A stretch of DNA of 64,000 nucleotides, from contig CAVUYC010000027.1 in NCBI GenBank assembly GCA_963745605.1, forward strand, positions 9,190 to 73,189, read 5' to 3'. Each line of letters starts with the position of its first letter. Within the stretch, counting starts at the first letter, position 1. The position numbers and the translations under genes were made by a program. Origin of the DNA: an uncultured Chloroflexia bacterium (GTDB lineage: Bacteria; Chloroflexota; Dehalococcoidia; Dehalococcoidales; UBA2162). Below are positions 23,226-60,467 of this stretch, piece after piece. The notes under the pieces are model-generated. The model saw nothing but the letters and a program-made list of their open reading frames with translations, ran no database searches and had not been told where the DNA came from.

Positions 23226-23259
23226 GCAACACTCCTAGAATAGAATTGGCCGATGCAAG

Positions 23260-23332
23260 TGCCCCTAGAGCGACTCGAACGCTCGCAACCGGCTTCGGAG
23301 GCCGATGCTCTATCCAACTGAGCTATAGGGGC
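23260..23332 (-). tRNA. tRNA-Arg (anticodon CCG), CCA not encoded
   Basis: GCCCCTA-TA-GCTC-AGTTGGATA-GAGC-A-TCGGC-CTCCGAA-GCCGG-..-GAGCG-TTCGAGT-CGCTC-TAGGGGC-A. Confidence 0.9.
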
Positions 23333-23516
23333 AAGAGGGAATAACCCACTAAGAGATATTAAAGCAAGGTTTTGGTCAATGCAACCGTGCGCGACAACCG
23401 ACCCCAAATAACATCCGATTCGACTAATAGCAGTATCGCGGCATAGCCCTAACGACCGGTGCCCTTCCTCTATATCCTAGGATTTAGACCTATACGAACT
23501 ACCGCTATATGAGTGC

Positions 23517-23545
23517 TTGCAACTAGGGCGTAGTACTGATATAAT
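23517..23545 (+). promoter_or_regulatory. Candidate sigma70-type promoter of the cytochrome gene
   Basis: TTGCAA (23517-23522), exactly 17 nt spacer, TATAAT (23540-23545). Confidence 0.5.
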
Positions 23546-23571
23546 CCCGCCCAATGCTCAGTCTAAGCCTT

Positions 23572-23607
23572 GATGAAGATGAACCGAAGGATGAAGATGA
23601 ACCGAAG
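23572..23607 (+). repeat. Perfect 18-bp tandem duplication GATGAAGATGAACCGAAG x2 in the cytochrome leader
   Basis: Read directly: 23572-23589 equals 23590-23607. Confidence 0.9.
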
Positions 23608-23660
23608 ACTGAGCTTCACTGCGCTCAAAATTGGTCTTTGACTAACGGAAGGAGGTCGCA

Positions 23661-26471
23661 TTGAGACGAAAGCTACTGCCCCATGTTGGCGCGGCATCGA
23701 TCCTGCTGGTTTTGGGATTGCTTGCCGCTTGCACACCTCAACCAGGTGCAGCGGGACCTGCGGGACCTGCGGGACCTGCGGGTCCGGCGGGAACAGCGGG
23801 TGCCGTCGGTGCCGCCGGGCCGCAAGGCGGCGCGGTTAGAATCGCCGATATCCACGGAGCCGCGGTCGTAAAGGCCGAGGACGAATTGCAGGGTGCGCCC
23901 GGCAACCCCAAGTACCTGGCGGATATCCAGGTCACCGCAGTTACTGCCGATGCTTCCGGCGTGGCGAAGGTCACCTTCACGCTCAAACACAACGGGGCCC
24001 CGGTGACGGCGATTCCAGCCGGCACTAGCGTAAGAGTCGGCATGTTCAAACTGGCGCCGAAAGCGAACGGCCAAAGCTACAATAGCTGGGTCTCCTACTA
24101 TTGGACTACGGCTACTGCCGGGACGGCCAACGCATCCAATGTGGCGTGGCCCATGCCGGCGACTTACAAGGTGAGCCAGGCCACCCGCGAGACAGTAGAC
24201 CTCGCGAAATTGGTCAACAATGGCGGGGGCAGCTACTCATATACGTTTGCCCAGAACCTTAGTACAGCGACCATGCCTTCACCGGCAATCAATCCAACAG
24301 GGACGACACCCGTCGGCTACGACCGGGCTGCAACGCACCGCGTGCTGGTCGATTTCGGAGGTCATGCCGGTCCGACGGGAGAAGCCACTCTGGACTTCGT
24401 GCCGAGTGGTTCGGCAGTCTCCCAAACACGGAATATCGTTTTAACCGACACGTGTAAGAAGTGCCACGGTCCTGAATTCGCAGGCCATGGCGGAGATCGC
24501 GTCACCGTAGAGGGTTGCGTGACCTGCCATAGTCCGAACACCACCGATCCTCAGAGCGGCAACACAGTTGAAATGTCCGTCATGATCCATAAGATTCATG
24601 CCGGCAACGAACTGCCGAGCATTCAGGGCCCCGACGGGCAGTACTACGACAATCCGAATACGCCCGTGGACGAGACCAAGGACAACGGCAAACCGTATGC
24701 CATCTGGGGCAATTCCAACTCTTACTTCTCGTGGGAGGGCGTCGCTTTCCCTGCGGTTATCGCAAATTGCGAGGCCTGTCACACCGGAGCCGCCAAAGAT
24801 GCGACCAACTGGAAGACCGTACCCTCCCGTGCGGCTTGCGGTTCCTGCCACGATAACGTGGACTTCAAGACTGGCGCCAACCATTCTCCGTCGAAGCTCG
24901 CCCAGGCAAATGACGACGCCTGCGCCGGATGCCATTCTTCTTCATCCATAGTCGATGCCCACAACTGGACGACGAAGGACGTTAGGAATATCCCGGAATA
25001 CGACGTCACGGTAACTACAGATACTCCGACTCGCGGCTACTACATCAACGGTGAAAAACCCGTGGTCACGATCGTGCTGAAGGACAAGGCCACAGGCGCC
25101 GTTATCGATCACAACACGGTGGTACAAGATCCGGTCGCTGAAGGAAGCTCCGGAAAGAGAGACGGGCTATTCACAGCCGCCAATGTCTACGTTTCAGGAC
25201 CACGGGCGGGAAAGGTCGTCAATCTGACCTATGCAGCACGGGCTGCAGTGCGGACGGCAACAGCAGGGCCCTGGAACCTGAGTGCCGGGGGAAGCCTGGC
25301 GGTGAGAGTGGACTCCGGAATGCCAATGTTGACCTACGATAATGCAAAAGAACAGGGTGGATACGGGGCTGACTTGCTGATCAGCGGCGACATCACAGTC
25401 ACGCTGCCGGCGACCGGTCCAGCCTTGAATGCTCTGTTCGCCAACCCCGCGGCAGCTACGGCCTCAGAGGTTGCAGCGTGGCTGAACGCCGACCCCAACT
25501 TCAGTGAGCGCGCCATTGCTTACATTGACGAGGCGCTGGCAGGCAACGCCAACGCTGGGAAGCTGGCGATCAGGACCCGTGGCGTAGCAAAGACAGACAA
25601 GAATGGCAACGTCACTGAGACTTATGACCAGCGCAGCATTCAGCTCGTGTCCATGCCCGTCGCAGGCATGTTCGCCGCAGCAGACACTGCACCAGCCGCG
25701 ACGTCGTTCAAGACGGCCGGTGGGGCGGATTCACTTCGCAAAATGACTGTCGCAAACGCGACGAACCCGAAGGCCGTCTTCTCAACTGGCAACATCAAAT
25801 ACACCCTGGATCCAGTGGACGACCTTGTCGCGGGAACCTACATTATCAACGTCGAATTCGCCGATGCCGGTCGAGCGCCTGCGCCTGCTAACCCGGCAGA
25901 GCCGCCGTACGTCGACTACGTAACACCATCGGTGGCAGTAGCGACCTTCCAGGTCAAGACCGCGGCCGTGGAAAAGCCGGTAGCGAGCAATTGCACCAGC
26001 TGCCACTGGAGCACCGCCGCGATCGGATTTGTGCTGGACTTCCCTCGCCACGACAAGATCTTCGATGAGAAGGCAACGGACCGGTGCGGAGGGTGCCATG
26101 ATTACCTTTCCGGCCAGAACCCGACAACGACGACCCAACTCAGCTACGCTGGAGCATTGTCGAACCGGGTACATGCGGTACACAACGGAGCGAACCTGCA
26201 GACTCCAACCCTCACGGTTAATCATGAGGAGACCTCTGCCTTCGGCCGCAATTGGGACATCAACTACCCCATGGATATCCGGAACTGCGAATCGTGCCAT
26301 CCCAAGGCAACGACCAGCGGCACATGGATGACCAATCCCAACCGCCTGGCTTGTTCGGGGTGCCATGACACCGATGCAGCCAAGGCTCACATGAAAATCA
26401 ATACCTTCGACCCAACGCCGCTGGCACCGTTTAGCGGGGATGAGGTCGAGTCCTGTAAGTCATGCCACTAA
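23661..26471 (+). CDS. Lipoprotein-type decaheme c-type cytochrome, OmcA/MtrC-like architecture, with a collagen-like Gly-X-Y linker
   Basis: GGAAGGAGG RBS and TTG start. Signal peptide plus lipobox LLAAC (Cys24). Nine G-X-Y triplets. Ten CxxCH motifs arranged 5 + ~330-aa gap + 5: CKKCH, CVTCH, CEACH, CGSCH, CAGCH / CTSCH, CGGCH, CESCH, CSGCH, CKSCH. Confidence 0.85.
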   Translation: MRRKLLPHVGAASILLVLGLLAACTPQPGAAGPAGPAGPAGPAGTAGAVGAAGPQGGAVRIADIHGAAVVKAEDELQGAPGNPKYLADIQVTAVTADASGVAKVTFTLKHNGAPVTAIPAGTSVRVGMFKLAPKANGQSYNSWVSYYWTTATAGTANASNVAWPMPATYKVSQATRETVDLAKLVNNGGGSYSYTFAQNLSTATMPSPAINPTGTTPVGYDRAATHRVLVDFGGHAGPTGEATLDFVPSGSAVSQTRNIVLTDTCKKCHGPEFAGHGGDRVTVEGCVTCHSPNTTDPQSGNTVEMSVMIHKIHAGNELPSIQGPDGQYYDNPNTPVDETKDNGKPYAIWGNSNSYFSWEGVAFPAVIANCEACHTGAAKDATNWKTVPSRAACGSCHDNVDFKTGANHSPSKLAQANDDACAGCHSSSSIVDAHNWTTKDVRNIPEYDVTVTTDTPTRGYYINGEKPVVTIVLKDKATGAVIDHNTVVQDPVAEGSSGKRDGLFTAANVYVSGPRAGKVVNLTYAARAAVRTATAGPWNLSAGGSLAVRVDSGMPMLTYDNAKEQGGYGADLLISGDITVTLPATGPALNALFANPAAATASEVAAWLNADPNFSERAIAYIDEALAGNANAGKLAIRTRGVAKTDKNGNVTETYDQRSIQLVSMPVAGMFAAADTAPAATSFKTAGGADSLRKMTVANATNPKAVFSTGNIKYTLDPVDDLVAGTYIINVEFADAGRAPAPANPAEPPYVDYVTPSVAVATFQVKTAAVEKPVASNCTSCHWSTAAIGFVLDFPRHDKIFDEKATDRCGGCHDYLSGQNPTTTTQLSYAGALSNRVHAVHNGANLQTPTLTVNHEETSAFGRNWDINYPMDIRNCESCHPKATTSGTWMTNPNRLACSGCHDTDAAKAHMKINTFDPTPLAPFSGDEVESCKSCH
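23745..23825 (+). repeat. Coding collagen-like repeat (9 consecutive Gly-X-Y codon triplets; core GGACCTGCG x3)
   Basis: GAAGPAGPAGPAGPAGTAGAVGAAGPQ, directly after the lipobox. Confidence 0.85.
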
Positions 26472-26523
26472 GGCGGGCGATCGCCGATACCAGCCACTGA
26501 ACAACAGGACTGGAGAGTACAAA

Positions 26524-26556
26524 GGAGGCGGGTCAAATGACCCGCCTCCTTCATTT
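26524..26556 (+). terminator. Rho-independent terminator of the cytochrome gene
   Basis: GGAGGCGGGTC-AAAT-GACCCGCCTCC (11-bp stem) followed by TTCATTT. Confidence 0.65.
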
Positions 26557-26719
26557 CCCCAACCCCTCGGCCCGAAGCGGCCCAGCATGTTGCTTGTCAC
26601 CTGTGCGAAAGGCCAGTACCAAACTAGACCGTCGACTCCCTGCTTCTCTACGTTCGCCTGATGTGAGCAGCCCTGAGACAGCGTTTAATTGGGGCAATGT
26701 ATGCATGGGAGGCCGCAAT

Positions 26720-27961
26720 ATGGTGGCGACGCGAGTGGAAAGACACGAAACGACCCCGATGACGATGGAAGCAACAGGGAAGAACTTCAATCCATTAAAT
26801 GGCTGCTACAAAGTACTCGTTCTCGAGGCGTTGCGGCTTGCCCTCAAGAACCCCTCGCTACCAGGCTTTCTGCTCCGCACAGTCCGGGCACAAAAGAGGG
26901 CATTTGAGCTGCGCTCAAGGCACGCTGACGAAGGCCTGTCGGTCCCTCCCGTGATGGTCTTCAGCGTGACCAACGGCTGCAACCTTCACCGCAAAGGCAG
27001 CTATAGCAGAGCGCTGAGGGACGCGTCGAAACCCGGCATGAGCACAATCGAACTCACGAGTATTATTCAAGAGGGAGCTGAATTGGGGGTCTCCCTGGTT
27101 GTTTTCGCGGGAGGAGAGCCCCTGGTGAGAAAGGACGTGTTGGAGATATCCGCCCGATTCCCCGACGTTTTGTTCATGATCTTCACCAACGGAACGCTGA
27201 TCACGGACGAGATGGTGAAAACCTTCAGGAGCCAGAAGAATGTGCTCCCCGTGTTAAGCATTGAAGGGGAAGCTCTTGAGACAGACGGGCGACGGGGAGA
27301 AGGCGTCCATCAACAGGTCGAGAGGGCGATGGCCACGATGCGGCGCAAAGGGGTCTTCTTTGGATCATCGATAACGGTGACAAGAGATAACTTCCACACT
27401 GTGGTAAACGATGCATTCGTCAGGAGACTGACCGGGCAGGGGTGCAGATTCATGCTCTACTCGGAATACACGCCGACTGAGCCAGCGACCGACGGTCTGG
27501 CAATTACCGAGACACAGAGAGAACTCCTGGGTTCCGACGTGAAAAGGTACAGGGCGAAACAACGAGCGCTGTTCTTCACCGCCCCTGGAGACGAGAGACA
27601 GTTCGGCGGATGCCTTTCAGCCGGGCGCGGATTTATCCACATCAACGCCAACGGAGACGGGGAGCCCTGTCCGTTCGTACCTGTTTCCGACACCAACCTC
27701 AGAGACCGTTCTTTGAGAGAGGCCCTGGGGTCACCATTGTTCGCAGCGATCCGCGCCGCCCGGTCGGAGGAGGGGACGGGGGGTTGCGCCCTGTGGAACA
27801 AGCGAGAGTGGCTGCAGACTCTGGCAAAGGATGCCGGCCGACCCTCCGGCGAGACCGTGTCGGAACACCGCACTTTCGTCTCGGTTGCAGGAGAACACGG
27901 AGATTACTACCGCGTTATCAGAAGAACCACTCCCGCCGCCTGCTGCGCCGCAGCCGCATAG
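26720..27961 (+). CDS. Radical SAM/SPASM-like protein with a degenerate CX3CX2C motif
   Basis: GGGAGG RBS 7 nt before the ATG at 26720; the ORF-track start at 26537 lies inside the terminator hairpin. Family motifs FAGGEPL, FTNGTLI and C-terminal GGCLSAGRGFIHINANGDGEPCPF are present. The cluster motif reads CNLHRKGSY instead of CNLxCxxCY. Confidence 0.7.
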   Translation: MVATRVERHETTPMTMEATGKNFNPLNGCYKVLVLEALRLALKNPSLPGFLLRTVRAQKRAFELRSRHADEGLSVPPVMVFSVTNGCNLHRKGSYSRALRDASKPGMSTIELTSIIQEGAELGVSLVVFAGGEPLVRKDVLEISARFPDVLFMIFTNGTLITDEMVKTFRSQKNVLPVLSIEGEALETDGRRGEGVHQQVERAMATMRRKGVFFGSSITVTRDNFHTVVNDAFVRRLTGQGCRFMLYSEYTPTEPATDGLAITETQRELLGSDVKRYRAKQRALFFTAPGDERQFGGCLSAGRGFIHINANGDGEPCPFVPVSDTNLRDRSLREALGSPLFAAIRAARSEEGTGGCALWNKREWLQTLAKDAGRPSGETVSEHRTFVSVAGEHGDYYRVIRRTTPAACCAAAA

Positions 27962-30044: not shown

Positions 30045-31308
30045 ATGCCAACAGCCAAGTCACCTGCAGAGCTATACGCTGAGAGAGAAAAGCGACTGAG
30101 AGATGCTATTGAACTACGGGTACCAGACAGAGTTCCCATTGTCCTGACGACCAACTACTTCCCGGCGAGATACGTTGGCGGCGGGGTTGACGGTAGCTGA
30201 CTCTTACTACAAGCCTGAGGTCTGGAAGAAGGCCACACTAAAGACGATCTCGGAGCTTGAGCCTGACATCCAGGCGGCCCAGGCTGGGGGATCAGGTCCA
30301 GCTCTGGCTGCACTCGACCCGAAGCTCTTTAAATGGGCTGGGGGCGGGTTGGGACAGGATGTTATGCACCAGTACTATGAGGGCGAACCGCTCAAGGCGG
30401 ACGAATACGAAATGTTCCTGTCCGACCCGGGCGACTACACCCTCAGGGTCTATTTGCCAAGGGTGTGGAAGGAGATGGAACCGCTGGCAAAGCTTCCTTC
30501 GCTGCAGTCGCTGTGGGGAGGGTCGACGTTGCCGACAAGGGCCGCAGCGTTTAATGACCCCGATGTGAAAAAGGCTTTTGCCGCCCTGGCAAAGTCGGCT
30601 GAAGAGCAGCAGAAGCACAGCCGCGTAATGGGCACCATTGACGAGGACCTGGCTGAACTCGGATTCCCGTCGCTCGCCCAGGGTAACGCAGCAGCCCCGT
30701 TCGACGCGGTCTCCGACCATCTGCGCGGCATGGCCGGAGCGATGATGGACCTCTACCGTCACCCTGCGGAGATCGAGAAAGCCTGCGAGCTCATCCTCTC
30801 ACGGTCGATCTCCTCAGGCCTCATGGCTCTGAACGCCAAACGAGGCAACCCAAAGCGTGTGGGAAGCGCGCTTCATCGCGGTTCAGACGGTTTCATGACA
30901 CTCAAGCATTTTGAACGGTTTTACTGGGCGACGTTCAAGAAGCTGGTCATGACCACGACAAGTGCCGGCCTGGTACACGTGCCATTCTACGAAGGGAACT
31001 GGGAGCAGAGGCTGGAGTATCTTCTTGAGCTTCCCAAGGCGAAGACAATCGCAAGGTTTGCCCTCACGGATATGGCAAAAGCGAAGCAGGTACTGAAAGG
31101 GCATTCATGCATCATGGGCGGCGTCCCCCACGGGCTACTTCAGGTAGGATCACCTTCAGAAGTCGAAGAGTTGGTCAAGAACCTGATAAAGACCTGCGGA
31201 AAAGATGGGGGACTTATTGTGACGACCAGCACAGGGATCACCCACGAAGCCAAGCCCGAGAACGTTAAGGCGATGATCGACGCAGTCAAGAAATACGGCA
31301 AATATTAG
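30045..31308 (+). pseudogene. Uroporphyrinogen decarboxylase (URO-D) family protein (MtaA/methyltransferase-like), frame-disrupted at the G4 run 30183-30186 as sequenced
   Basis: ATG at 30045 with GGAGGAG 8 nt upstream gives MPTAKSPAELYAEREKRLRDAIELRVPDRVPIVLTTNYFPARYVGGG. This continues as LTVADSYYKPEVW... (ORF 30175..31308) if one G is skipped. Confidence 0.7.
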
Positions 31309-53322: not shown

Positions 53323-54129
53323 TTACCGGTCTTGGCGATCCAGAATCGCCGGATTGAACGCATTTGAGGTTGTTCTTCCTATTGCTGCAAAGCGCGGAGG
53401 GCAGACCTCAAAACAGGTCCCGCACTTGATGCACTTGCTCTGATCGATCCAGTGCTTCTGCCCCTTGCCGCCGACAACCGCCTCGGCCGGACATCTCCTC
53501 AAACAGATCATGCAAGCCCTGCATTTGTCCTGATCCACCTGATAGGAAGCCACCGATTCGAACAGGCTGGCTATCTCCTGGTCGGTGTACAGCGCGGCGT
53601 AGTCTTCGATTTTAGCTGGACGCGCCGCCAGCTTGTCCTTCTTCACAATCTTGATATAGGGAACAAGACTCGTGACTGTGTCGAGTTTCGCCTTGATATC
53701 GCTCTCGTCCAGACCCTCGCCGGCTCCGAGGGGTCCGAGCTCCTTCACCTGCCTGACGAAATCCGTGACTGTTTCAGCGAACAGAATGCCGTCTCCCGAA
53801 GACATGAACTCTATCCTGAGGCGGAGCGGATTAAGGCCGACGTACGCCATTATTCTCTTGCAGAGGTTGGCCTTGTTTAGGGCGCTGTAGTTGCCATGGG
53901 TTGTATAGTTGCACTCATCCAGTCTGCAGCCGACGATTAGTAAGCCATCGGCCCCGTCTGAGAAAGCGCGGAGGACGTGGCGCAGGTCAATTCTCCCGGT
54001 ACACATGAACCGGAGAAGTCTGATGTCAGTCGGGTATTGCAGCCTGGAAACTCCAGCGAGGTCGGCAGCGCCGTACCCTCACCAGTGGCAGACGAACCCG
54101 AGAATTTTGGGCTTAAACTCGATTGGCAT
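53323..54129 (-). CDS. mvhD: MvhD-like domain (selenocysteine at TGA 54079-54081) fused to a 2x[4Fe-4S] ferredoxin domain; BamF-like
   Basis: Own translation from ATG at 54129 (AGGAAGCGAGG RBS): MPIEFKPKILGFVCHW-U-GYGAADLAGVSRLQYPTDIRLLRFMCTGRID..., in frame with ORF 53323..54006. C-terminal CRACMICLRRCP and CIKCGTCFEVCP. Confidence 0.8.
54044..54056 (-). other. Weak SECIS candidate for the MvhD-like gene
   Basis: CUGGA-GUU-UCCAG, 22 nt after UGA. Short stem, so low confidence. Confidence 0.25.
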
Positions 54130-54162
54130 CCTCGCTTCCTTGAATTTCTTAGGGAACTAAGA

Positions 54163-57100
54163 TCACCGTGGCGACGCGAGGGCAGCATCGATTTCGCTCA
54201 ACAGCTGCTCGTCGGTAAAGTGCCTGGACATTATTGCCCCAGTGGGGCAATTTGAGGCACATAGACCATCGCCTTTACACAGCACCGGGTTTATGACCGC
54301 CTTGTTGCCCTGAGCGGTCGACTTGAGCTCAATTGCTCCGTAGGCACAACTTTTGACACAGGCTCCGCACCCCATACACTTCTTCTCAACCAAGTCACAC
54401 ACCGAACCTGACGCTGTAACCGTGTCATGAGACAACAAAGTGAGCACCCGCCCCGCCGCCCCGAATGCCTGATTGACCGTTTCAGTGATATGTTTGGGAT
54501 AGTGGGCCATGCCGCAAAGGAAAACCCCTTCGGCGGCAAAATCGACGGGCCGTAACTTCACATGAGCTTCTTTGAAGAAACCATCGGGTCCGAGGGAGAT
54601 CTTGAAAAGCTGGGCAACATCCTCGCTTCCGGCCGCCGGAACTACTGCGGCCGCCAGGGCGACAAAGTCAGCATCCAGAGCAAGCCTTTTCCCCAGAATC
54701 TGGTCGGTTACCGTTACCCTGAGTCTTCCGTTCTCCAGGGCCTCCACCACTGGTGCATCCTCGGGTTCGTAGCGGATGAAACTGACCTCTTTCTCCGCCG
54801 CCAACCTGTAGTGGTCCTCTTTGAAACCGTAGGTCCGCATGTCACGGAAGAGAATGTAGATGTCCGTGGAGGGGTTCCTCTGCTTCAGTGCCAGAGCGTT
54901 CTTGACCGAATGACTGCAGCACACACGGCTGCAGTAGTCTCGGTCCTTGTTCCTGCACCCCACACACTGAACCATGACGATGCTTCGAGCATCTGCCAGG
55001 CCCTCGTCTCTGCTGAAGATCTTTTCCTCGAGCTCCAGATTGTTCAAAACCCTATCATTCCGGCCGTACAGGTATTCGGTCGGAGAGTAGACCTGGGCGC
55101 CGGTGGCGATGACCGTCGCACCATGGCTGATTTGTTTCACGCCCCGCGTAGACTCAATGGTTGTCACGAAATTGCCCACATAGCCTGTAGCTGACGAGAT
55201 AACAGACCCTGTGTACACGTGGACCGAAGGATGCTCAAGCACCTTTTTGACGAGGTCGCGCAGATATTGCTGGACGTCCATGCCTTCCAGCGTCGACGTC
55301 AGTCTTCTTGCCACGCCTCCCAGGTCGGGCTCTCGCTCAATAAGGTGGACCTCGTGTCCTTGTGCCGCAATAGAGAGTGCGCAAGTCATGCCAGCAATCC
55401 CCCCGCCCACTACCAGCGCCGCCTTGTTCACCGGCAACTCGAATTCGCCAAGTGGCTCCAGATGGCCTGCCCGCGCCACCGACATTCGAATGATGTCTTT
55501 TGCTTTACGTGTAGAGTCTTCGCTCTCCCGGGAATGTACCCATGAGTTGTGTTCGCGGATGTTTGCCATCTCGAGATAGTACTGATTGATTCCCGCTTCC
55601 CGCACCGTGTCGCGAAATAGCGCCTCCAGCGTCCGCGGCGAACAAGCGGCGACAACTACGCGGTTCAGCCCCTTTTCCTTAATCATGTCCGTGATTTCCT
55701 GGGCGCAATTCGTGGCACAGGAAAAGAGCTGCTCCTGGGCATACGCGACATTCGGCAGGGTGAGCGCGTAATCGACAGTTGACGGCACGTCCACTACTCT
55801 TCCGATGTTAGCCCCGCAGTGGCAGACAAAGACGCCGATCCTCGGCCTCTCTTTGGATACATCCTTTTCCGGAGGGTATTCTCGATCTACACTCAGCTTA
55901 CCCCTGCGGAAATTCAGCAACTCGCCCGTTTGTGAAGCTGCGCCGCTGGCCGAGAATACCGATTCCGGTATGTCGACCGGACCCTGAAAGGCGCCGCTGA
56001 CAAACACTCCCGGCCTGGAGGTTCCGATGGGATTGTCGCCGTCGGTCTTGCAGAATCCGTGCTCGTTAATCTCGATTCCGAACTTCTGAGCCAGATCGGC
56101 AAATCCCGAGGGAGGGTTTAGACCCACCGAGAGCACCACCATCTCAAACTCTTCCTCGCGCACCCCGTCTTCGGGCGTAGAATAGCGAAGAGTGACGTTC
56201 CTGCTTCCGGGTACTTCTCGCCCCAGCGAAACGTAGCTTCTGACAAACCTCACCCCGGCCAGGTCCCTGGCCCGTTCGTAGAAGCGTTCGAAATCTTTGC
56301 CGTGGGCACGAATGTCGTTGTGGAATATCGTGCACTCCACACCGGGGTCGTGGTCTTTGGAGAGGATCACCTGCTTCTGGGCATAGGCGCAACAGACCGA
56401 TGAGCAGTAGCTATTGCCGCCGTCGATTATCTGCCTCGATCCGACGCACTGTATCCAGGCGATCTTGCGTGGGGGTCTCCCATCCGAGGGACGTCTAATC
56501 TCGCCTTCGTACGGTCCCGTGGCACACAGTATCCGCTCGAAATCCATACTCGTTACCACATTGGGCAACGTGCCATATCCGAAGTCCCCTCTTGCCTTCG
56601 GGTCGAACGGCTCGATCCCAGGCGCGAGAATAATAGCCCCGACGTTGAGCTCGATGTGCTGCGCCGTCTGAGTTAAGTCGATGGCTTTGTTCTTGCACAC
56701 CCGCTCGCAAAGCCGGCATTTCTTCTCCTTGAGATATAGACAGCTTTCGTCGATATAGGCGACCAGCGGAATCGCCTGGGCATAGTAGATGTGTACGGCC
56801 TTGTTGCCCGAGATTGACTGGTTGAACTTGTCAGGATAGGAAACTGGGCAATATTCGACGCACGTCGTGCAACCGTGGCACTTGTCTTCCCTGATATACC
56901 TCGGCTTTTTGACGAGGCTGACCTTGAAATCTCCGGCCTCGCCCTTCACCGCTTCAACATCGGTATACGAGAAGACCTCGATGTTCGTCTGCCGGCCGAC
57001 CTCGACCAGTTTCGGTGAGAGTATTCACATCGAACAATCGTTGGTAGGAAAGGTCTTGTCAAGCTGCGCCATGTGCCCGCCGATGGCGGGGAGCTTCTCG

Positions 57101-58054: not shown

Positions 58055-60013
58055 TTAGTCCCGGAGGATGTCCCTCTTCACGAAGTCGTCAGCCACGTAA
58101 TCCAGGCCGAGGCCGTGCAAAGACTCTTTCGTCGGAATTCCCTCGCCGTTCCACCCCTTGTACCTATAATAGGCGTCTAATAGCTGGGACTCCAACTCGG
58201 GATACCGCCGGCGCCAATGGTCTTCAGGCGGCTTTTCGTCCGCCCGCCTCATCCCACGCCGAATGTTCACCGACCTCACCAGTTGCCGGTTCCGCCTTGC
58301 GACCTGCGTCAGTCCAGCTTCGTCAATATCCATCCCTGTCGCCGCCGAAATCAGCGACGGGTAATTATGTATGTGATAGGGAGGCTTGAGGGGGAACGAC
58401 GACAGCCCGGCACATACCCCGAGCGAATCGTCAATGTAGTGCATTCGCTCCATCCAATCGACCGCTTCGCAACACATCTGGACTGTCGGGTAGTAGGGGT
58501 TGGAGAACTCTCCCCTCGGTTCCCAATCCAGAAAATACTGCTTAAACTTGTCGTCAGGCACCTGGATCCAGTCTTTGACGAACGCTTCTCTCTCTTCACG
58601 GGTAGGAAAAGGCTCCTGGGGGAACTGACCTTCTATCTGAGTGATATTAATCTTCTCGCCCGTGGAATACATCAGGAAATAGATGGGATTGAGCATGCCC
58701 AGCTTGAGAGGCAACTGCTCGTGCTTCTTGATGTTGTTATGGGCAAATTCTTCGGCGCCCTTGCCGATCTGCTTCGCCGCCCAGTAGGTGCCGTTGGCCA
58801 GAATATCTCCGATTCCATCCCGATGCACAATCTTGTCAAGGAGCCAGTAGAAACGTCCCTCGCTATCGGACGGCATTCCAGGCATATCTGAGGACGTCAG
58901 GATGCCGGCCTCGTATAGCTCCAGCGCAAAAGCCATTACCTGCGGCGTCGAGAATCCATCGACCCCGTACTCGGTGGCCAGCTGGGCGATCTTGAAGCCG
59001 AAATCGAGGTCCGAATAGGCCGCCATGGTGTAGGTCAGCTTTGAGTAGCACTTCATCATGTAGGTTGAGATGCCTGGTACCGAGATTGCTGCCCCGCATT
59101 TCATGGGGCAGTTATAGCAACTGAGCAAACGCGTGCGCACATTCTCCTGAGTCTCACGCCATTTCTGCTCGATCTCCGTCGTCCAGAAGTCCTTCCGGCG
59201 GGTTCGCGAATTGCCCCACATGAAGCTGGTGGTGTGCCACTTCTCGTCGAAGAGCTTCATCTCCTGGGGCGAACCCAGGCCGGCCAGAATGGGCATGACA
59301 CCCGGGATCGGGTGTTGCTCTCTCGCCCTTATGTTCTCAAGGACTTCGTTGCAGAGCTTGATGAACTCGGCAGGCCGTGCCACGCTGACATCCATGGTGC
59401 CCCTGACAGCGATGGCCTTCACACCCTTGTCCCCCATCACCGCCCCAATTCCGAGCCGGGAGGCGCTTGATCTTCCCTGTTCTATGGAGGCCATGTAGAC
59501 CCGGTTCTCTCCAGCCAGGCCAATAGACGCTACCTGGGCATACGGCTGGTCAAGTTCCTCGCGGATAAGTTCAGATGTCTCGCCGGCGCCTTTGCCCTTC
59601 AAATGAGAGGCATCACGTATTTCAACCTTGCCATTGTGTATCCAAATATATACAAGCTTAGGGGACTTGCCCCGAAGGACGATCTTGTCAAAGCCGGCGA
59701 ATTTGAGTTCTGGGGCGAAGAACCCTCCCATCATGGAGTAGGCCATGAGCCGGGTCTGGGGAGAGTAGGTGGTGACGATGGTGCGATTCGCACCGACCGC
59801 CGGCGTGCCGCAGAGAAGCCCGGTGCCGAAGATCAGTATGTTATCCGGCGAGAAGGGGTCAGTCGCAGCAGGCACCGTATCCCATAGCAGCTTGGCATTG
59901 GTACCCAACCCGCCTAGGTATAGGCCGGTCTGGGAGAGGTCGGTTACTATCCTTTCGATATTGCCGCTGGAAAGGTCGATTTCGAGGTTAAATCCTGTTT
60001 CAGCGTATCTCAT
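58055..60013 (-). CDS. Tungsten-type aldehyde:ferredoxin oxidoreductase family enzyme, BamB-like (class II benzoyl-CoA reductase catalytic subunit type)
   Basis: I prefer the start at the ATG at 60013, giving MRYAETGFNLEIDLSSGNIERI...YLGGLGTNAKLLWD (653 aa). AOR-family core. Context of Fe-S, HdrA(Sec) and MvhD(Sec) genes. Confidence 0.85.
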   Translation of the reverse strand: MRYAETGFNLEIDLSSGNIERIVTDLSQTGLYLGGLGTNAKLLWDTVPAATDPFSPDNILIFGTGLLCGTPAVGANRTIVTTYSPQTRLMAYSMMGGFFAPELKFAGFDKIVLRGKSPKLVYIWIHNGKVEIRDASHLKGKGAGETSELIREELDQPYAQVASIGLAGENRVYMASIEQGRSSASRLGIGAVMGDKGVKAIAVRGTMDVSVARPAEFIKLCNEVLENIRAREQHPIPGVMPILAGLGSPQEMKLFDEKWHTTSFMWGNSRTRRKDFWTTEIEQKWRETQENVRTRLLSCYNCPMKCGAAISVPGISTYMMKCYSKLTYTMAAYSDLDFGFKIAQLATEYGVDGFSTPQVMAFALELYEAGILTSSDMPGMPSDSEGRFYWLLDKIVHRDGIGDILANGTYWAAKQIGKGAEEFAHNNIKKHEQLPLKLGMLNPIYFLMYSTGEKINITQIEGQFPQEPFPTREEREAFVKDWIQVPDDKFKQYFLDWEPRGEFSNPYYPTVQMCCEAVDWMERMHYIDDSLGVCAGLSSFPLKPPYHIHNYPSLISAATGMDIDEAGLTQVARRNRQLVRSVNIRRGMRRADEKPPEDHWRRRYPELESQLLDAYYRYKGWNGEGIPTKESLHGLGLDYVADDFVKRDILRD

Positions 60014-60467
60014 ATCACGCGGAAAACACTCGGAATGCCACGATGATGAATTGGGTATTGCACTGTTTCTACGACAAGGCTGATCGTGACATATCAGCGT
60101 TCTAAAGTCAATGGAGGGTATCTCTCTGAGTGCATTGTTATTACATTCCGATGTTCGGATAGGATATTCGTCTGGATTCCTGACCACAACGCTTGCCGCA
60201 CGGCAGTTCGCTCAGATTACGAGGGCCAGTGGTCTGCAGCGAGGGGGGAGTTGATACCCGCGGACTTGTTAGTTCACGGTTGAGTCGACGATTGGCCGTA
60301 ATAAGCGCCCCTTCCCAAACAGCTCTCTTCGGCTATTGACCTCCAGTTGGCTTGGCAAGCATGGCAAACCGAAGACGATGGCCGCACGACGTGGATCGAA
60401 GGGATGGGACGAGGGTCTGCGAGCAATCCGCTCAGGACCTCATATTGTCGTTGGTTTCACAGACTAT

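What the first reader, a model, noticed from the sequence alone, without database searches (positions are those of the whole stretch)
23661..26471. Decaheme OmcA/MtrC-type cytochrome made as a lipoprotein on a collagen-like stalk
Ten CxxCH motifs fall in two groups of five separated by ~330 haem-free residues, preceded by ~240 haem-free residues. This is the domain I-II-III-IV layout of the Shewanella outer-surface decahaem cytochromes. The N-terminus is a lipoprotein signal (LLAAC), followed immediately by nine uninterrupted Gly-X-Y triplets (GAAGPAGPAGPAGPAGTAGAVGAAGPQ). That could be a flexible or trimerising spacer holding the cytochrome away from the membrane. No MtrA/MtrB-like porin-cytochrome partners are adjacent. 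The gene has its own consensus promoter and terminator. This points to extracellular electron transfer with a non-Shewanella-type anchoring solution.
Basis: partly seen in the sequence, partly recalled or inferred. Interest (0 to 1): 0.65.

Follow-up and report, generated by a model that had tools for sequence, protein, structure and literature searches.

The report
Tethered decahaem surface cytochrome, OmcA/MtrC family
This gene encodes a lipid-anchored ten-haem cytochrome of the well-known OmcA/MtrC family that bacteria use to pass electrons to minerals outside the cell; it differs in its long collagen-like tether, a doubled middle domain, a lost disulphide and a probable Chloroflexota host.

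Summary

Family membership passes the tests. TIGR03507 scores 324.6 bits (cut-off 209.3). PF22113 matches twice. Foldseek finds only OmcA, UndA, MtrC and MtrF below E 1e-3.

The stalk is not special to this gene. 79 of 85 lipobox-bearing homologues carry at least 5 triplets, and some reach 50. Shewanella MtrF and MtrC have 4-5 triplets after their lipobox Cys. So the anchor is the Shewanella type, lengthened, not a different solution.

Three differences are real:
- Domain III is about twice the usual size and has no match among solved structures.
- The family's conserved domain-III Cys pair is missing.
- The flanking genes point to a Chloroflexota (Dehalococcoidia-like) anaerobe, probably without an outer membrane.

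The gene is a single-gene islet beside tRNA-Arg and is absent at that site in one relative. No MtrAB or other multihaem gene lies in the 64 kb, as at about 60 of 80 related loci.

It is most likely a tethered cell-surface electron-transfer cytochrome. Triple-helix formation is untested.

The parts
23259..23332 (-). tRNA-Arg (CCG). It marks the synteny breakpoint next to which the cytochrome gene sits.
   Evidence: ARAGORN and Rfam. The same tRNA precedes the cytochrome in L081 and L082. In L084, homology to the window ends exactly at 23332 and the cytochrome is absent.
23517..23545 (+). Sigma-70-like promoter: TTGCAA, 17-nt spacer, TG-TATAAT.
   Evidence: 10 of 12 consensus matches with an extended -10. 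This is a consensus match only; no transcription start site data are available.
23572..23607 (+). Perfect 18-nt tandem duplication (GATGAAGATGAACCGAAG x2) in the roughly 115-nt leader.
   Evidence: The leader has no significant fold (z -0.24) and no Rfam match.
23650..23663 (+). Shine-Dalgarno AGGAGG, a 5-nt spacer and the TTG start codon.
   Evidence: The arrangement is identical in L082.
23661..23732 (+). Type II (lipoprotein) signal peptide, residues 1-23, plus the lipidated Cys24 (lipobox LAAC).
   Evidence: Cys24 is invariant in alignment A1. Processing has not been tested.
23745..23834 (+). Collagen-like tether: ten uninterrupted Gly-X-Y triplets (residues 29-58).
   Evidence: The Gly columns are invariant in A1. 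pLDDT is below 50 for residues 19-55. PF01391 scores only 10 bits against a cut-off of 27.2.
23835..24428 (+). Domain I: N-terminal beta-barrel domain (residues 59-256).
   Evidence: PF22112 OmcA-like_N matches residues 99-208 at 21.9 bits, below the cut-off of 27. TIGR03507 aligns from residue 99. The model is beta-rich with pLDDT above 90.
24429..24959 (+). Domain II: pentahaem domain (residues 257-433; CxxCH at 265, 286, 370, 393, 421).
   Evidence: PF22113 covers residues 257-433 (profile positions 1-174 of 176); the family scores 117 bits for the whole protein over two matched stretches.
24966..25976 (+). Domain III: expanded haem-free beta-rich domain (residues 436-772). It is about twice the Shewanella size and lacks the conserved Cys pair.
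   Evidence: The model of this domain alone has pLDDT 93.8. No PDB match has E below 0.01. Full-length matches occur only in 850-1170 aa relatives. The Cys pair is absent.
25977..26471 (+). Domain IV: pentahaem domain (residues 773-936; CxxCH at 778, 809, 876, 898, 932). The protein ends on the His of haem motif 10; the stop codon is 26469-26471.
   Evidence: Motif positions are. One search reports two matched PF22113 stretches and lists only the first (257-433); I infer that the second covers this domain. The clade consensus also ends ...CxxCH.
26522..26551 (+). 13-bp G+C-rich hairpin, 50 nt after the stop codon; terminator-like.
   Evidence: The U-tract is weak (CAUUUCC) and the hairpin is not listed by the simple scan.

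Best explanation
The gene encodes a genuine OmcA/MtrC-family decahaem c-type cytochrome made as a lipoprotein.

Export and maturation (inferred from established knowledge of the family, not tested here). After Sec export the signal peptide is cut before Cys24, which is lipidated. Ten haems are attached to the CxxCH motifs.

Folded body (shown by HMM and model). It is the four-domain staggered-cross scaffold: barrel I, pentahaem II, enlarged barrel III, pentahaem IV.

Tether (inferred). A roughly 34-residue proline- and alanine-rich Gly-X-Y tract connects the body to the membrane lipid. It could extend up to about 9 nm. It holds the haem wire away from the membrane while keeping it attached to the cell. 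This is the same design as Shewanella MtrC, MtrF and OmcA, whose tether is only 4-5 triplets.

Host (inferred from flanking genes). The host is most likely a strictly anaerobic Chloroflexota, Dehalococcoidia-like. In such a cell the anchor would be the cytoplasmic membrane and no MtrAB porin conduit would be needed. The cytochrome would pick up electrons from a membrane quinol dehydrogenase or another cytochrome encoded elsewhere. It would then deliver them to extracellular or insoluble acceptors such as Fe(III)/Mn(IV) oxides, humics or flavins. The direction of electron flow is not established.

Origin (shown). The gene is a self-contained unit inserted beside tRNA-Arg, and its nearest named relatives are in another phylum. 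That fits acquisition by horizontal transfer followed by vertical inheritance in this lineage.

Lost Cys pair (loss shown; meaning inferred). This subclade has lost the domain-III Cys pair. In Shewanella that pair gates flavin binding in response to oxygen. Its loss is plausible in a strict anaerobe.
For: Family membership:
- TIGR03507 scores 324.6 bits against a cut-off of 209.3.
- PF22113 scores 117 bits with two matched stretches.
- phmmer against PDB finds OmcA at E 1e-23, then MtrF, UndA and MtrC. The clade profile finds OmcA at 1.6e-46.
- The AF2 model has pLDDT 85.9 and pTM 0.83. All 16 Foldseek hits below E 1e-3 are OmcA, UndA, MtrC or MtrF.

Lipobox and tether:
- The sequence shows both directly.
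- 79 of 85 lipobox-bearing homologues have at least 5 triplets; the median is 9 and the maximum 33. Myxococcales loci reach 40-50 triplets.
- Six homologues with a plain signal peptide and no Cys also lack the tract. So the tract travels with the lipid anchor.
- The Shewanella N-termini show the same motif.
- The tract is disordered in the monomer model.

Host:
- Every organism-named hit to the window's RNR and PorA is Chloroflexota or Dehalococcoidales, at 68-73% identity.
- The neighbours are POR, AOR and HdrA2/MvhD-type genes, typical of anaerobes.

Islet:
- The order por operon, tRNA-Arg, cytochrome is kept in L081 and L082.
- In L084 the cytochrome is missing exactly at the tRNA.
- There is no synteny with the Syntrophales loci.

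Orphan state is usual:
- About 60 of 80 related loci have no other multihaem ORF within 10 kb.
- mtrC lies apart from mtrAB in Desulfobacterota (PMC12133095).

Expression:
- Contigs from a sediment metatranscriptome, 93-96% identical to the window, cover 24385-26515.

Cys pair:
- It is missing in the window protein, P0002-P0005, P0009 and P0069, and present in almost all the other aligned homologues, including P0001 at 82% identity.
- Its role in Shewanella is described in PMC4486940.
Against: - No haem attachment, lipidation, localisation or activity has been measured.
- The host assignment rests on best named hits to two flanking genes. It is not a phylogeny, and the rest of the genome was not available. 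I therefore cannot exclude an outer membrane, MtrAB or other porin-cytochromes, or confirm a cytochrome maturation system or the electron donor.
- The nearest named relatives of the cytochrome itself are in diderm phyla (Syntrophales at 70%, then Deferrimicrobium, Myxococcota and Planctomycetota).
- The metatranscriptome evidence comes from related strains, from assembled contigs that may contain DNA.
- The terminator has a weak U-tract.
- Positional equivalence between the missing Cys pair and the Shewanella CX8C was not shown. The sequence profile did not align that part of domain III.
Confidence: 0.7

Rival explanations
1. The Gly-X-Y tract is a true collagen triple helix. It trimerises three decahaem units on a rigid stalk, giving a 30-haem surface assembly, rather than acting as a flexible monomeric tether.
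For: - The Gly period is strict over ten triplets, with Pro in 5 of 10 X positions.
- The Gly columns are invariant across the clade.
- Relatives have 20-50 triplets and pass Pfam Collagen PF01391 in the precomputed annotation. That is long enough for stable bacterial collagen helices (my knowledge of Scl-type proteins).
Against: - Ten triplets rich in Gly-Pro-Ala, without hydroxyproline and without a recognisable trimerisation domain, are expected to be marginally stable (my knowledge of collagen peptide stability).
- PF01391 scores 10 bits against a cut-off of 27.2 here.
- The length varies from 2 to 50 triplets among homologues. That suits a spacer better than a precise structural module.
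- The characterised Shewanella proteins, with 4-5 triplets, were crystallised as monomers or loose oligomers (my knowledge).
- No multimer prediction was possible with these tools.
Confidence: 0.2
2. The host is really a diderm, for example a Desulfobacterota relative, or a Chloroflexota lineage with an outer membrane. The protein is then an ordinary outer-surface MtrC working with MtrAB encoded elsewhere in the genome.
For: - The closest named homologues of the cytochrome are in diderm phyla.
- mtrC is often unlinked from mtrAB (PMC12133095).
- Only 64 kb of the genome was seen.
Against: - Two independent flanking genes have only Chloroflexota or Dehalococcoidales named hits.
- The por operon, tRNA-Arg, cytochrome junction is reproduced in two other independent assemblies, which argues against a chimeric contig.
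- No outer-membrane biogenesis gene was found among the window ORFs scanned.
Confidence: 0.2
3. The protein is not an extracellular electron-transfer terminal. It is a membrane-tethered redox enzyme or electron store acting on soluble substrates in the space next to the membrane, with the enlarged domain III as the substrate site.
For: - Domain III is doubled in size, highly conserved and confidently folded, yet unlike any solved structure.
- Shewanella MtrC is reported to catalyse reactions at its C-terminal domains (title and abstract of PMC12304082, listed; the paper was not read).
- No partner genes are nearby.
Against: - Every characterised family member is a surface electron-transfer cytochrome (molecule names).
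- No catalytic motif or open haem coordination site was identified. Ten or eleven conserved non-motif His residues are available for bis-His ligation of all ten haems.
Confidence: 0.1

Closest known systems
Shewanella outer-membrane multihaem cytochromes OmcA, MtrC, MtrF and UndA (TIGR03507; PDB 4LMH, 4LM8, 3PMQ, 3UCP)
   Same: - Ten CxxCH motifs in a 5+5 arrangement.
- The four-domain order: barrel, pentahaem, barrel, pentahaem.
- A lipoprotein signal peptide followed by a Gly-X-Y-type linker.
- HMM and fold matches.
   Different: - Only 15-18% identity in structural alignment.
- A tether of 10 triplets instead of 4-5.
- Domain III of about 337 residues, against roughly half that. The extra part is seen only in 850-1170 aa relatives.
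- No domain-III Cys pair.
- The protein ends on the haem-10 His.
- No mtrAB nearby, and a probable monoderm host.
The 'long' OmcA/MtrC clade annotated in MAGs of Syntrophales, Deferrimicrobium, Anaeromyxobacter, Polyangiaceae/Myxococcota, Planctomycetota and others
   Same: - 45-82% identity over the full length.
- The same enlarged domain III, the same C-terminus, and a lipobox followed by a Gly-X-Y stalk.
- Members are usually orphan genes.
   Different: - Almost all members keep the domain-III CX3-15C pair, which this subclade has deleted.
- Myxococcota members add CTVxDNGDGTxTIxC modules to the stalk.
- The named hosts are diderms, whereas this window looks Chloroflexota.
Desulfuromonas acetexigens / Desulfobacterota MtrC lineage (ISME J 2025, PMC12133095)
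   Same: It is an OmcA/MtrC-family decahaem outside the Gammaproteobacteria, with mtrC often unlinked from mtrAB.
   Different: Those genomes do carry mtrAB, and the protein was studied in a diderm. That paper does not mention a collagen-like tether (0 occurrences of 'collagen').
Geobacter sulfurreducens PgcA (PMC5732950)
   Same: It is an extracellular multihaem lipoprotein in which low-complexity proline-rich repeats tether the haem domains. It is proposed to reach from the cell to Fe(III) oxides.
   Different: It is an unrelated triheme protein. Its repeats are (PT)x tracts between haem domains, not a Gly-X-Y tract at the anchor. It is proteolytically released.
Bacterial collagen-like surface proteins (Scl1/Scl2, Bucl; Pfam PF01391)
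   Same: An uninterrupted Gly-X-Y tract, rich in Pro at X, serves as a stalk between a cell anchor and a globular head.
   Different: The tract is far shorter here and is below the Pfam threshold. The anchor is an N-terminal lipid, not LPXTG. There is no known trimerisation domain. The head is a cytochrome.

Membership tests
OmcA/MtrC family decahaem c-type cytochromes (TIGR03507; outer-membrane multihaem cytochromes) | Whole-protein score above the curated cut-off of the family HMM | tested here: met
   TIGR03507 scores 324.6 bits against a cut-off of 209.3, E 1.3e-96.
OmcA/MtrC family decahaem c-type cytochromes (TIGR03507; outer-membrane multihaem cytochromes) | Two pentahaem domains (Pfam PF22113, domains II and IV), each with five CxxCH motifs | tested here: met
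   PF22113 scores 117 bits against a cut-off of 30, with two matched stretches. Ten CxxCH motifs lie in a 5+5 arrangement.
OmcA/MtrC family decahaem c-type cytochromes (TIGR03507; outer-membrane multihaem cytochromes) | Four-domain fold with beta-barrel domains I and III flanking the haem domains | tested here: met
   The AF2 model has pLDDT 85.9. Foldseek finds OmcA at E 1.9e-25, and the only hits below 1e-3 are OmcA, UndA, MtrC and MtrF, with TM normalised to target of 0.47-0.62 for the full-length chains. Domain III is enlarged, and when searched alone it matches nothing.
OmcA/MtrC family decahaem c-type cytochromes (TIGR03507; outer-membrane multihaem cytochromes) | N-terminal lipoprotein signal peptide (lipobox Cys) | tested here: met
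   LLAAC is present, with Cys24 invariant in A1. This is sequence evidence only; actual lipidation is not testable with these tools.
OmcA/MtrC family decahaem c-type cytochromes (TIGR03507; outer-membrane multihaem cytochromes) | Conserved CX8-15C disulphide in domain III (PMC4486940) | tested here: not met
   There is no Cys outside the lipobox and the haem motifs. The loop is deleted here and in P0002-P0005, P0009 and P0069, while almost all other aligned homologues keep a CX3-15C pair. Whether this pair occupies the same position as the Shewanella one was not shown.
OmcA/MtrC family decahaem c-type cytochromes (TIGR03507; outer-membrane multihaem cytochromes) | Functional partnership with an MtrA/MtrB porin-cytochrome conduit | tested here: inconclusive
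   There is none in the 64-kb window. The rest of the genome was not available. Absence nearby is the rule in this clade.
OmcA/MtrC family decahaem c-type cytochromes (TIGR03507; outer-membrane multihaem cytochromes) | Bis-His ligation of all ten haems | tested here: inconclusive
   Besides the ten motif His, eleven non-motif His are invariant or nearly so: H65, H226, H276, H310, H313, H408, H434, H797, H838, H841 and H910. That is enough for ten distal ligands. No coordinates with haem were available to assign them.
Collagen triple-helix repeat proteins (Pfam PF01391) | Uninterrupted Gly-X-Y repeats scoring above the family threshold | tested here: not met
   Ten perfect triplets are present, but PF01391 scores 10.0 bits against a cut-off of 27.2, E 0.75. 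Longer-stalked homologues do carry PF01391 in the precomputed annotation.
Collagen triple-helix repeat proteins (Pfam PF01391) | Formation of a trimeric triple helix | not testable with these tools
   Only monomer prediction is available. The tract has pLDDT below 50 in the monomer model.

The most novel reading that the evidence does not exclude
The lipobox plus Gly-X-Y stalk is an unrecognised, family-wide, length-tunable module: 4-5 triplets in Shewanella, 10 here, and up to 50 in Myxococcales. In the longer versions it forms a collagen triple helix that displays trimeric decahaem heads at a set distance from the membrane. In this probable monoderm Chloroflexota, that stalk alone would replace the MtrAB porin conduit. 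The cell would then be wired to minerals directly from the cytoplasmic membrane, and it would do so with a head that has dispensed with the oxygen-sensing disulphide.
Probability: 0.15. Interest if true: 0.75.

Novelty: new variant of a known kind. Interest (0 to 1): 0.42.

Why it matters
OmcA/MtrC cytochromes are the textbook terminal reductases of mineral respiration. Nearly all mechanistic work comes from Shewanella, where they depend on the MtrAB outer-membrane conduit.

This locus belongs to a large, mostly uncultured clade found in soil, sediment and groundwater. In that clade the cytochrome is usually an orphan gene, has a doubled domain III of unknown role, and hangs on a collagen-like tether whose length varies tenfold.

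If the host is indeed a Chloroflexota without an outer membrane, three things would follow:
- The family would be shown to work without a porin partner.
- Iron or humic-substance respiration, or electron uptake, could be assigned to an abundant and poorly understood group of anaerobes.
- The tether-length series and the natural loss of the redox-active Cys pair would serve as ready-made variants. They could test how distance from the membrane and flavin gating control extracellular electron transfer.

Tried and rejected
1. Identifying the source genome. An exact look-up of the window's PorA found nothing on record. The single scan of the GTDB representative genomes found no near-identical cytochrome; the best was 70% identity in a Syntrophales MAG. 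Cluster look-ups gave no organism names for the closest RNR or PorA relatives. The taxon therefore rests on named hits at 68-73% identity.

2. Synteny with the Syntrophales and other genome loci. None was found.

3. A structural identity for the enlarged domain III. The model is confident, but Foldseek against PDB gave nothing below E 0.01, and MtrC ranked only 42nd.

4. Aligning the clade's domain-III Cys pair to the Shewanella CX8C by profile. The profile alignment stops short of that loop, so equivalence is only presumed.

5. A regulatory RNA in the 115-nt leader. There is no significant fold and no Rfam family.

6. Literature linking collagen-like tracts to MtrC or OmcA, or placing the family in Chloroflexota or Dehalococcoidia. 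Five full-text searches and targeted reads found nothing. This covers only the open-access library searched.

7. A Tat signal was considered because of the Arg-Arg at residues 2-3. I rejected it as unlikely, because c-type cytochromes are exported unfolded by Sec and the rest of the Tat consensus is absent (my knowledge).

8. A pseudogene or chance ORF was rejected. The frame is intact over 936 codons, it is 82% identical to relatives over the full length, and all ten haem motifs are conserved.


Full report
**1. Observation**

The ORF lies exactly at 23661-26471 on the + strand and encodes 936 residues. A script count finds ten CxxCH motifs, at residues 265, 286, 370, 393, 421 and at 778, 809, 876, 898, 932. 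Only one further cysteine exists, Cys24. It is the only ORF in the 64-kb window with two or more such motifs.

The start is TTG, five bases after AGGAGG. The N-terminus MRRKLLPHVGAASILLVLGLLAAC is a classical type II signal peptide with lipobox L-A-A-C. An independently assembled relative (L082) has the same AGGAGG-TTG start and the same signal peptide. Its gene caller had truncated the protein. This supports the start codon chosen here.

After Cys24-Thr-Pro-Gln-Pro come ten uninterrupted Gly-X-Y triplets (residues 29-58). The tract is partly encoded by a 9-nt tandem repeat.

A promoter-like TTGCAA-17-TG-TATAAT lies at 23517-23545. A 13-bp G+C-rich hairpin lies at 26522-26551. Its U-tract is weak and the simple terminator scan did not list it.

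**2. What it is**

- Pfam PF22113, MtrC/MtrF domains II/IV, scores 117 bits with two matched stretches. PF22112, the OmcA-like N-terminal domain, gives a sub-threshold match in domain I.
- By sequence, the only solved structures matched are OmcA, MtrF, UndA and MtrC. The E-value is 1e-23 with the single sequence and 1.6e-46 with a profile of 113 clade members.
- An AlphaFold2 model built on that alignment is confident (mean pLDDT 85.9, pTM 0.83). The exceptions are residues 1-55, which are the signal peptide and the stalk.
- Foldseek against the PDB returns OmcA (E 1.9e-25), then UndA, MtrC and MtrF. Nothing else falls below E 1e-3.

**3. The clade**

More than 1,200 database proteins match the query. 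The best 120 are 43-82% identical over nearly the full length. Where they are named, they are called OmcA/MtrC family decahaem cytochromes.

Genome records place them in MAGs of Syntrophales, Candidatus Deferrimicrobium, Anaeromyxobacteraceae, Polyangiaceae and other Myxococcota, Planctomycetota, Acidobacteria and some Gammaproteobacteria. One cultured strain, Anaeromyxobacter sp. PSR-1, also carries one.

All clade members are 850-1,170 residues long and share the large haem-free domain III. I searched that domain alone (residues 436-772) against 1.84 billion representative proteins.
- It found 90 matches.
- Full-length matches occurred only in proteins of this size class.
- The 700-800-residue family members matched only its first 90 residues or so.

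So roughly 200 residues of domain III are a clade-specific addition. Modelled alone, the domain is very confident (pLDDT 93.8) but resembles no solved structure (best E 0.011).

The clade also ends precisely on the histidine of the tenth haem motif.

**4. The stalk is a family trait, not a peculiarity of this gene**

- Among the 120 best homologues, 85 have a recognisable lipobox. Of those, 79 carry at least five consecutive Gly-X-Y triplets directly after it. The median is 9 and the maximum 33.
- In Myxococcales genome loci the run reaches 40-50 triplets. It is often interleaved with CTVxDNGDGTxTIxC modules.
- Several homologues already carry the Pfam Collagen domain in precomputed annotation.
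- Six homologues have an ordinary signal peptide without a cysteine, and they also lack the tract. The tract therefore goes with the lipid anchor.
- The N-termini of Shewanella MtrF (…LLSAC-GGSDGDDGSPGEPGKPP) and S. baltica MtrC (…LTGC-GGSDGNDGNPGEPGG) appear in the alignments. Each has four to five Gly-X-Y triplets after the lipobox cysteine.

The anchoring design is therefore the Shewanella one, lengthened.

I found no paper in the searchable library that connects a collagen-like tract with MtrC or OmcA.

**5. Does the tract form collagen?**

This cannot be decided here. In favour:
- The Gly period is strict.
- Pro occupies half of the X positions.
- The Gly columns are conserved.
- Relatives have very long tracts.

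Against:
- Ten Gly-Pro-Ala-type triplets without a trimerisation domain should be only marginally stable (my knowledge of collagen peptides).
- The Pfam score is 10 bits against a threshold of 27.2.
- The tenfold variation in length looks like a spacer that evolves by repeat slippage. The 9-nt DNA repeat and a backward joint inside it in a related strain's transcript contig (table 5c) fit that view.

I treat an extended, flexible tether of up to about 9 nm as the default. I give triple-helix formation by this protein about 0.2.

**6. Host and genomic setting**

The neighbours are a four-subunit pyruvate:ferredoxin oxidoreductase operon on the opposite strand, tRNA-Arg(CCG), and downstream a radical-SAM-like gene. 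Elsewhere in the window lie aldehyde:ferredoxin oxidoreductase, an HdrA2-like protein with an MvhD/FlpD-type partner, a class II ribonucleotide reductase with NrdR, and transporters. Together these are the picture of a strict anaerobe.

Among the 120 best hits listed for each of the window's RNR and PorA, every hit that carries an organism name is 'Chloroflexota', 'Chloroflexi' or 'Dehalococcoidales', at 68-73% identity. The host is therefore probably a Dehalococcoidia-like Chloroflexota. My estimate is about 0.8. That phylum is generally regarded as lacking a classical outer membrane (my knowledge).

The junction of por operon, tRNA-Arg and cytochrome is reproduced in two other assemblies, L081 and L082. 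Both are about 74% identical at the DNA level. So the contig is not chimeric and the gene is inherited within this lineage.

In a further relative, L084 (PorA 79% identical, on a 585-kb contig), homology to the window stops exactly at the end of the tRNA gene. The cytochrome is absent there, and a CitMHS transporter follows. That transporter is the gene that lies downstream of the cytochrome in L082.

The gene is thus a one-gene islet beside a tRNA gene. Its nearest named relatives are in another phylum, and it shares no synteny with them. That fits horizontal acquisition, as documented for mtr genes generally (PMC8805035 and PMC12133095, abstracts).

**7. No partners nearby**

No MtrA, MtrB or other multihaem ORF lies in the window. 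At about 60 of 80 related genome loci the decahaem gene is likewise the only multihaem ORF within 10 kb. A minority sit in multihaem clusters. These include two Gammaproteobacteria loci with a 10-haem MtrA-sized ORF upstream. In Desulfobacterota, mtrC is reported to lie apart from mtrAB (PMC12133095). Absence nearby is therefore not evidence of absence in the genome.

**8. The missing Cys pair**

The Shewanella literature states that all outer-membrane multihaem cytochromes contain a conserved CX8-15C in domain III. In MtrC this disulphide gates FMN binding, and removing it makes cells oxygen-sensitive (PMC4486940).

In the clade alignment, almost all the other aligned homologues have a CX3-15C pair early in domain III. 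The window protein and its closest subclade (P0002-P0005 and P0009, plus P0069) have a short Cys-free loop instead: AEG-SSGK-RDGLF against AEG-CIPKPGAEGTQCTVP-RDGLF in P0001, which is 82% identical.

This is a tested family feature that is not met. I could not show that the pair occupies the same position as the Shewanella one. In a strict anaerobe, loss of an oxygen-responsive switch is plausible, but that is inference.

**9. Expression**

Two soil metagenomes contain identical fragments at low depth. A sediment metatranscriptome contains contigs 93-96% identical that cover 24385-26515. Relatives of the gene are therefore probably transcribed in situ. The evidence is weak, because it comes from assembled contigs in which DNA carry-over is possible.

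**10. Mechanism proposed**

Shown:
- family membership,
- the domain layout,
- the lipobox,
- the tether sequence and its conservation,
- the islet position,
- the missing Cys pair.

Inferred:
- Sec export, lipidation of Cys24 and attachment of ten haems.
- The folded four-domain body held up to about 9 nm from the membrane by the tether.
- Electrons received from a membrane or wall-space donor encoded elsewhere, and passed along the staggered haem cross to extracellular or insoluble acceptors, or in the reverse direction.
- In a cell without an outer membrane, no porin conduit is needed.

**11. Verdict**

This is a real, intact and probably expressed OmcA/MtrC-family cytochrome. It belongs to a known family and carries that family's usual kind of anchor.

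It departs from the characterised members in four ways:
- tether length,
- a doubled domain III of unknown structure class,
- loss of the conserved Cys pair,
- a probable Chloroflexota host without adjacent partners.

I rate it a new variant of a known kind, of moderate interest. The clade-wide, length-variable collagen-like tether is the most useful general point to come out of the check.

Noticed in passing
window 26537-27961 (+): The gene just downstream of the cytochrome is a radical-SAM/SPASM-like protein. Its best, far sub-threshold, matches are haem b synthase AhbD, NirJ and a 'pseudo-SAM' family. Its CxxxCxxC cluster motif is degenerate (…TNGCNLHRKGSY…). The listed ATG at 26537 lies inside the cytochrome's terminator hairpin, so the true start is probably further downstream.
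   Followed up: partly
window 30175-31308 (+): A uroporphyrinogen-decarboxylase-family (URO-D) protein lies 3.7 kb downstream of the decahaem gene. Together with the AhbD/NirJ-like gene, this hints at a tetrapyrrole-related neighbourhood. The link is untested.
   Followed up: no
window 23572-23607 (+): There is a perfect 18-nt tandem duplication (GATGAAGATGAACCGAAG x2) in the cytochrome's 5' leader. The leader has no significant RNA fold and no Rfam match.
   Followed up: partly
L084 8278-9137 compared with window 23333-23660: In a relative with 79% identical PorA, the cytochrome is absent and homology ends exactly at tRNA-Arg. The CitMHS gene that follows the cytochrome in L082 abuts the tRNA region there. 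This is a clean single-gene presence/absence polymorphism next to a tRNA.
   Followed up: yes
L010, L016, L018, L043, L062, L065, L068, L074 (N-terminal regions of the decahaem ORFs); also P0048, P0056, P0097: Myxococcota homologues carry one to several copies of a roughly 25-residue Cys-bracketed module (CTVxDNGDGTxTIxCxDGTxVTV) interleaved with Gly-X-Y runs. This is a second kind of stalk building block.
   Followed up: no
L050, L052, L061 (decahaem ORFs): The Gly-X-Y runs reach 40-50 triplets in these Myxococcales loci. That is long enough to be genuine collagen helices. These are the best candidates for testing trimerisation.
   Followed up: no
P0092, P0094, P0098, P0103, P0110, P0117 (850-852 aa homologues): This subclade has an ordinary signal peptide, no lipobox Cys and no Gly-X-Y tract. 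The mature protein starts directly at the conserved …ITxFHG segment. It is a natural control showing that stalk and lipid anchor are coupled.
   Followed up: partly
window residue H65 (23853-23855): A nearly invariant His-Gly lies immediately after the stalk. Together with ten other conserved non-motif His residues, it gives eleven candidates for ten distal haem ligands. The first ordered segment after the tether may therefore ligate a haem.
   Followed up: no
window 53323-56949 (-) and 58055-60187 (-): These regions encode an HdrA2-like 928-aa flavoprotein (NF040770, 791.6 bits against a cut-off of 1100) next to an MvhD/FlpD-ferredoxin fusion, and an aldehyde:ferredoxin oxidoreductase. This is electron-bifurcation-type anaerobic metabolism in the same organism.
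   Followed up: no
window 23749-23800: A metatranscriptome contig from a related strain shows a backward joint (23800 to 23749) inside the 9-nt repeat that encodes the Gly-Pro-Ala triplets (table 5c). This is consistent with strain-to-strain variation in triplet number.
   Followed up: no
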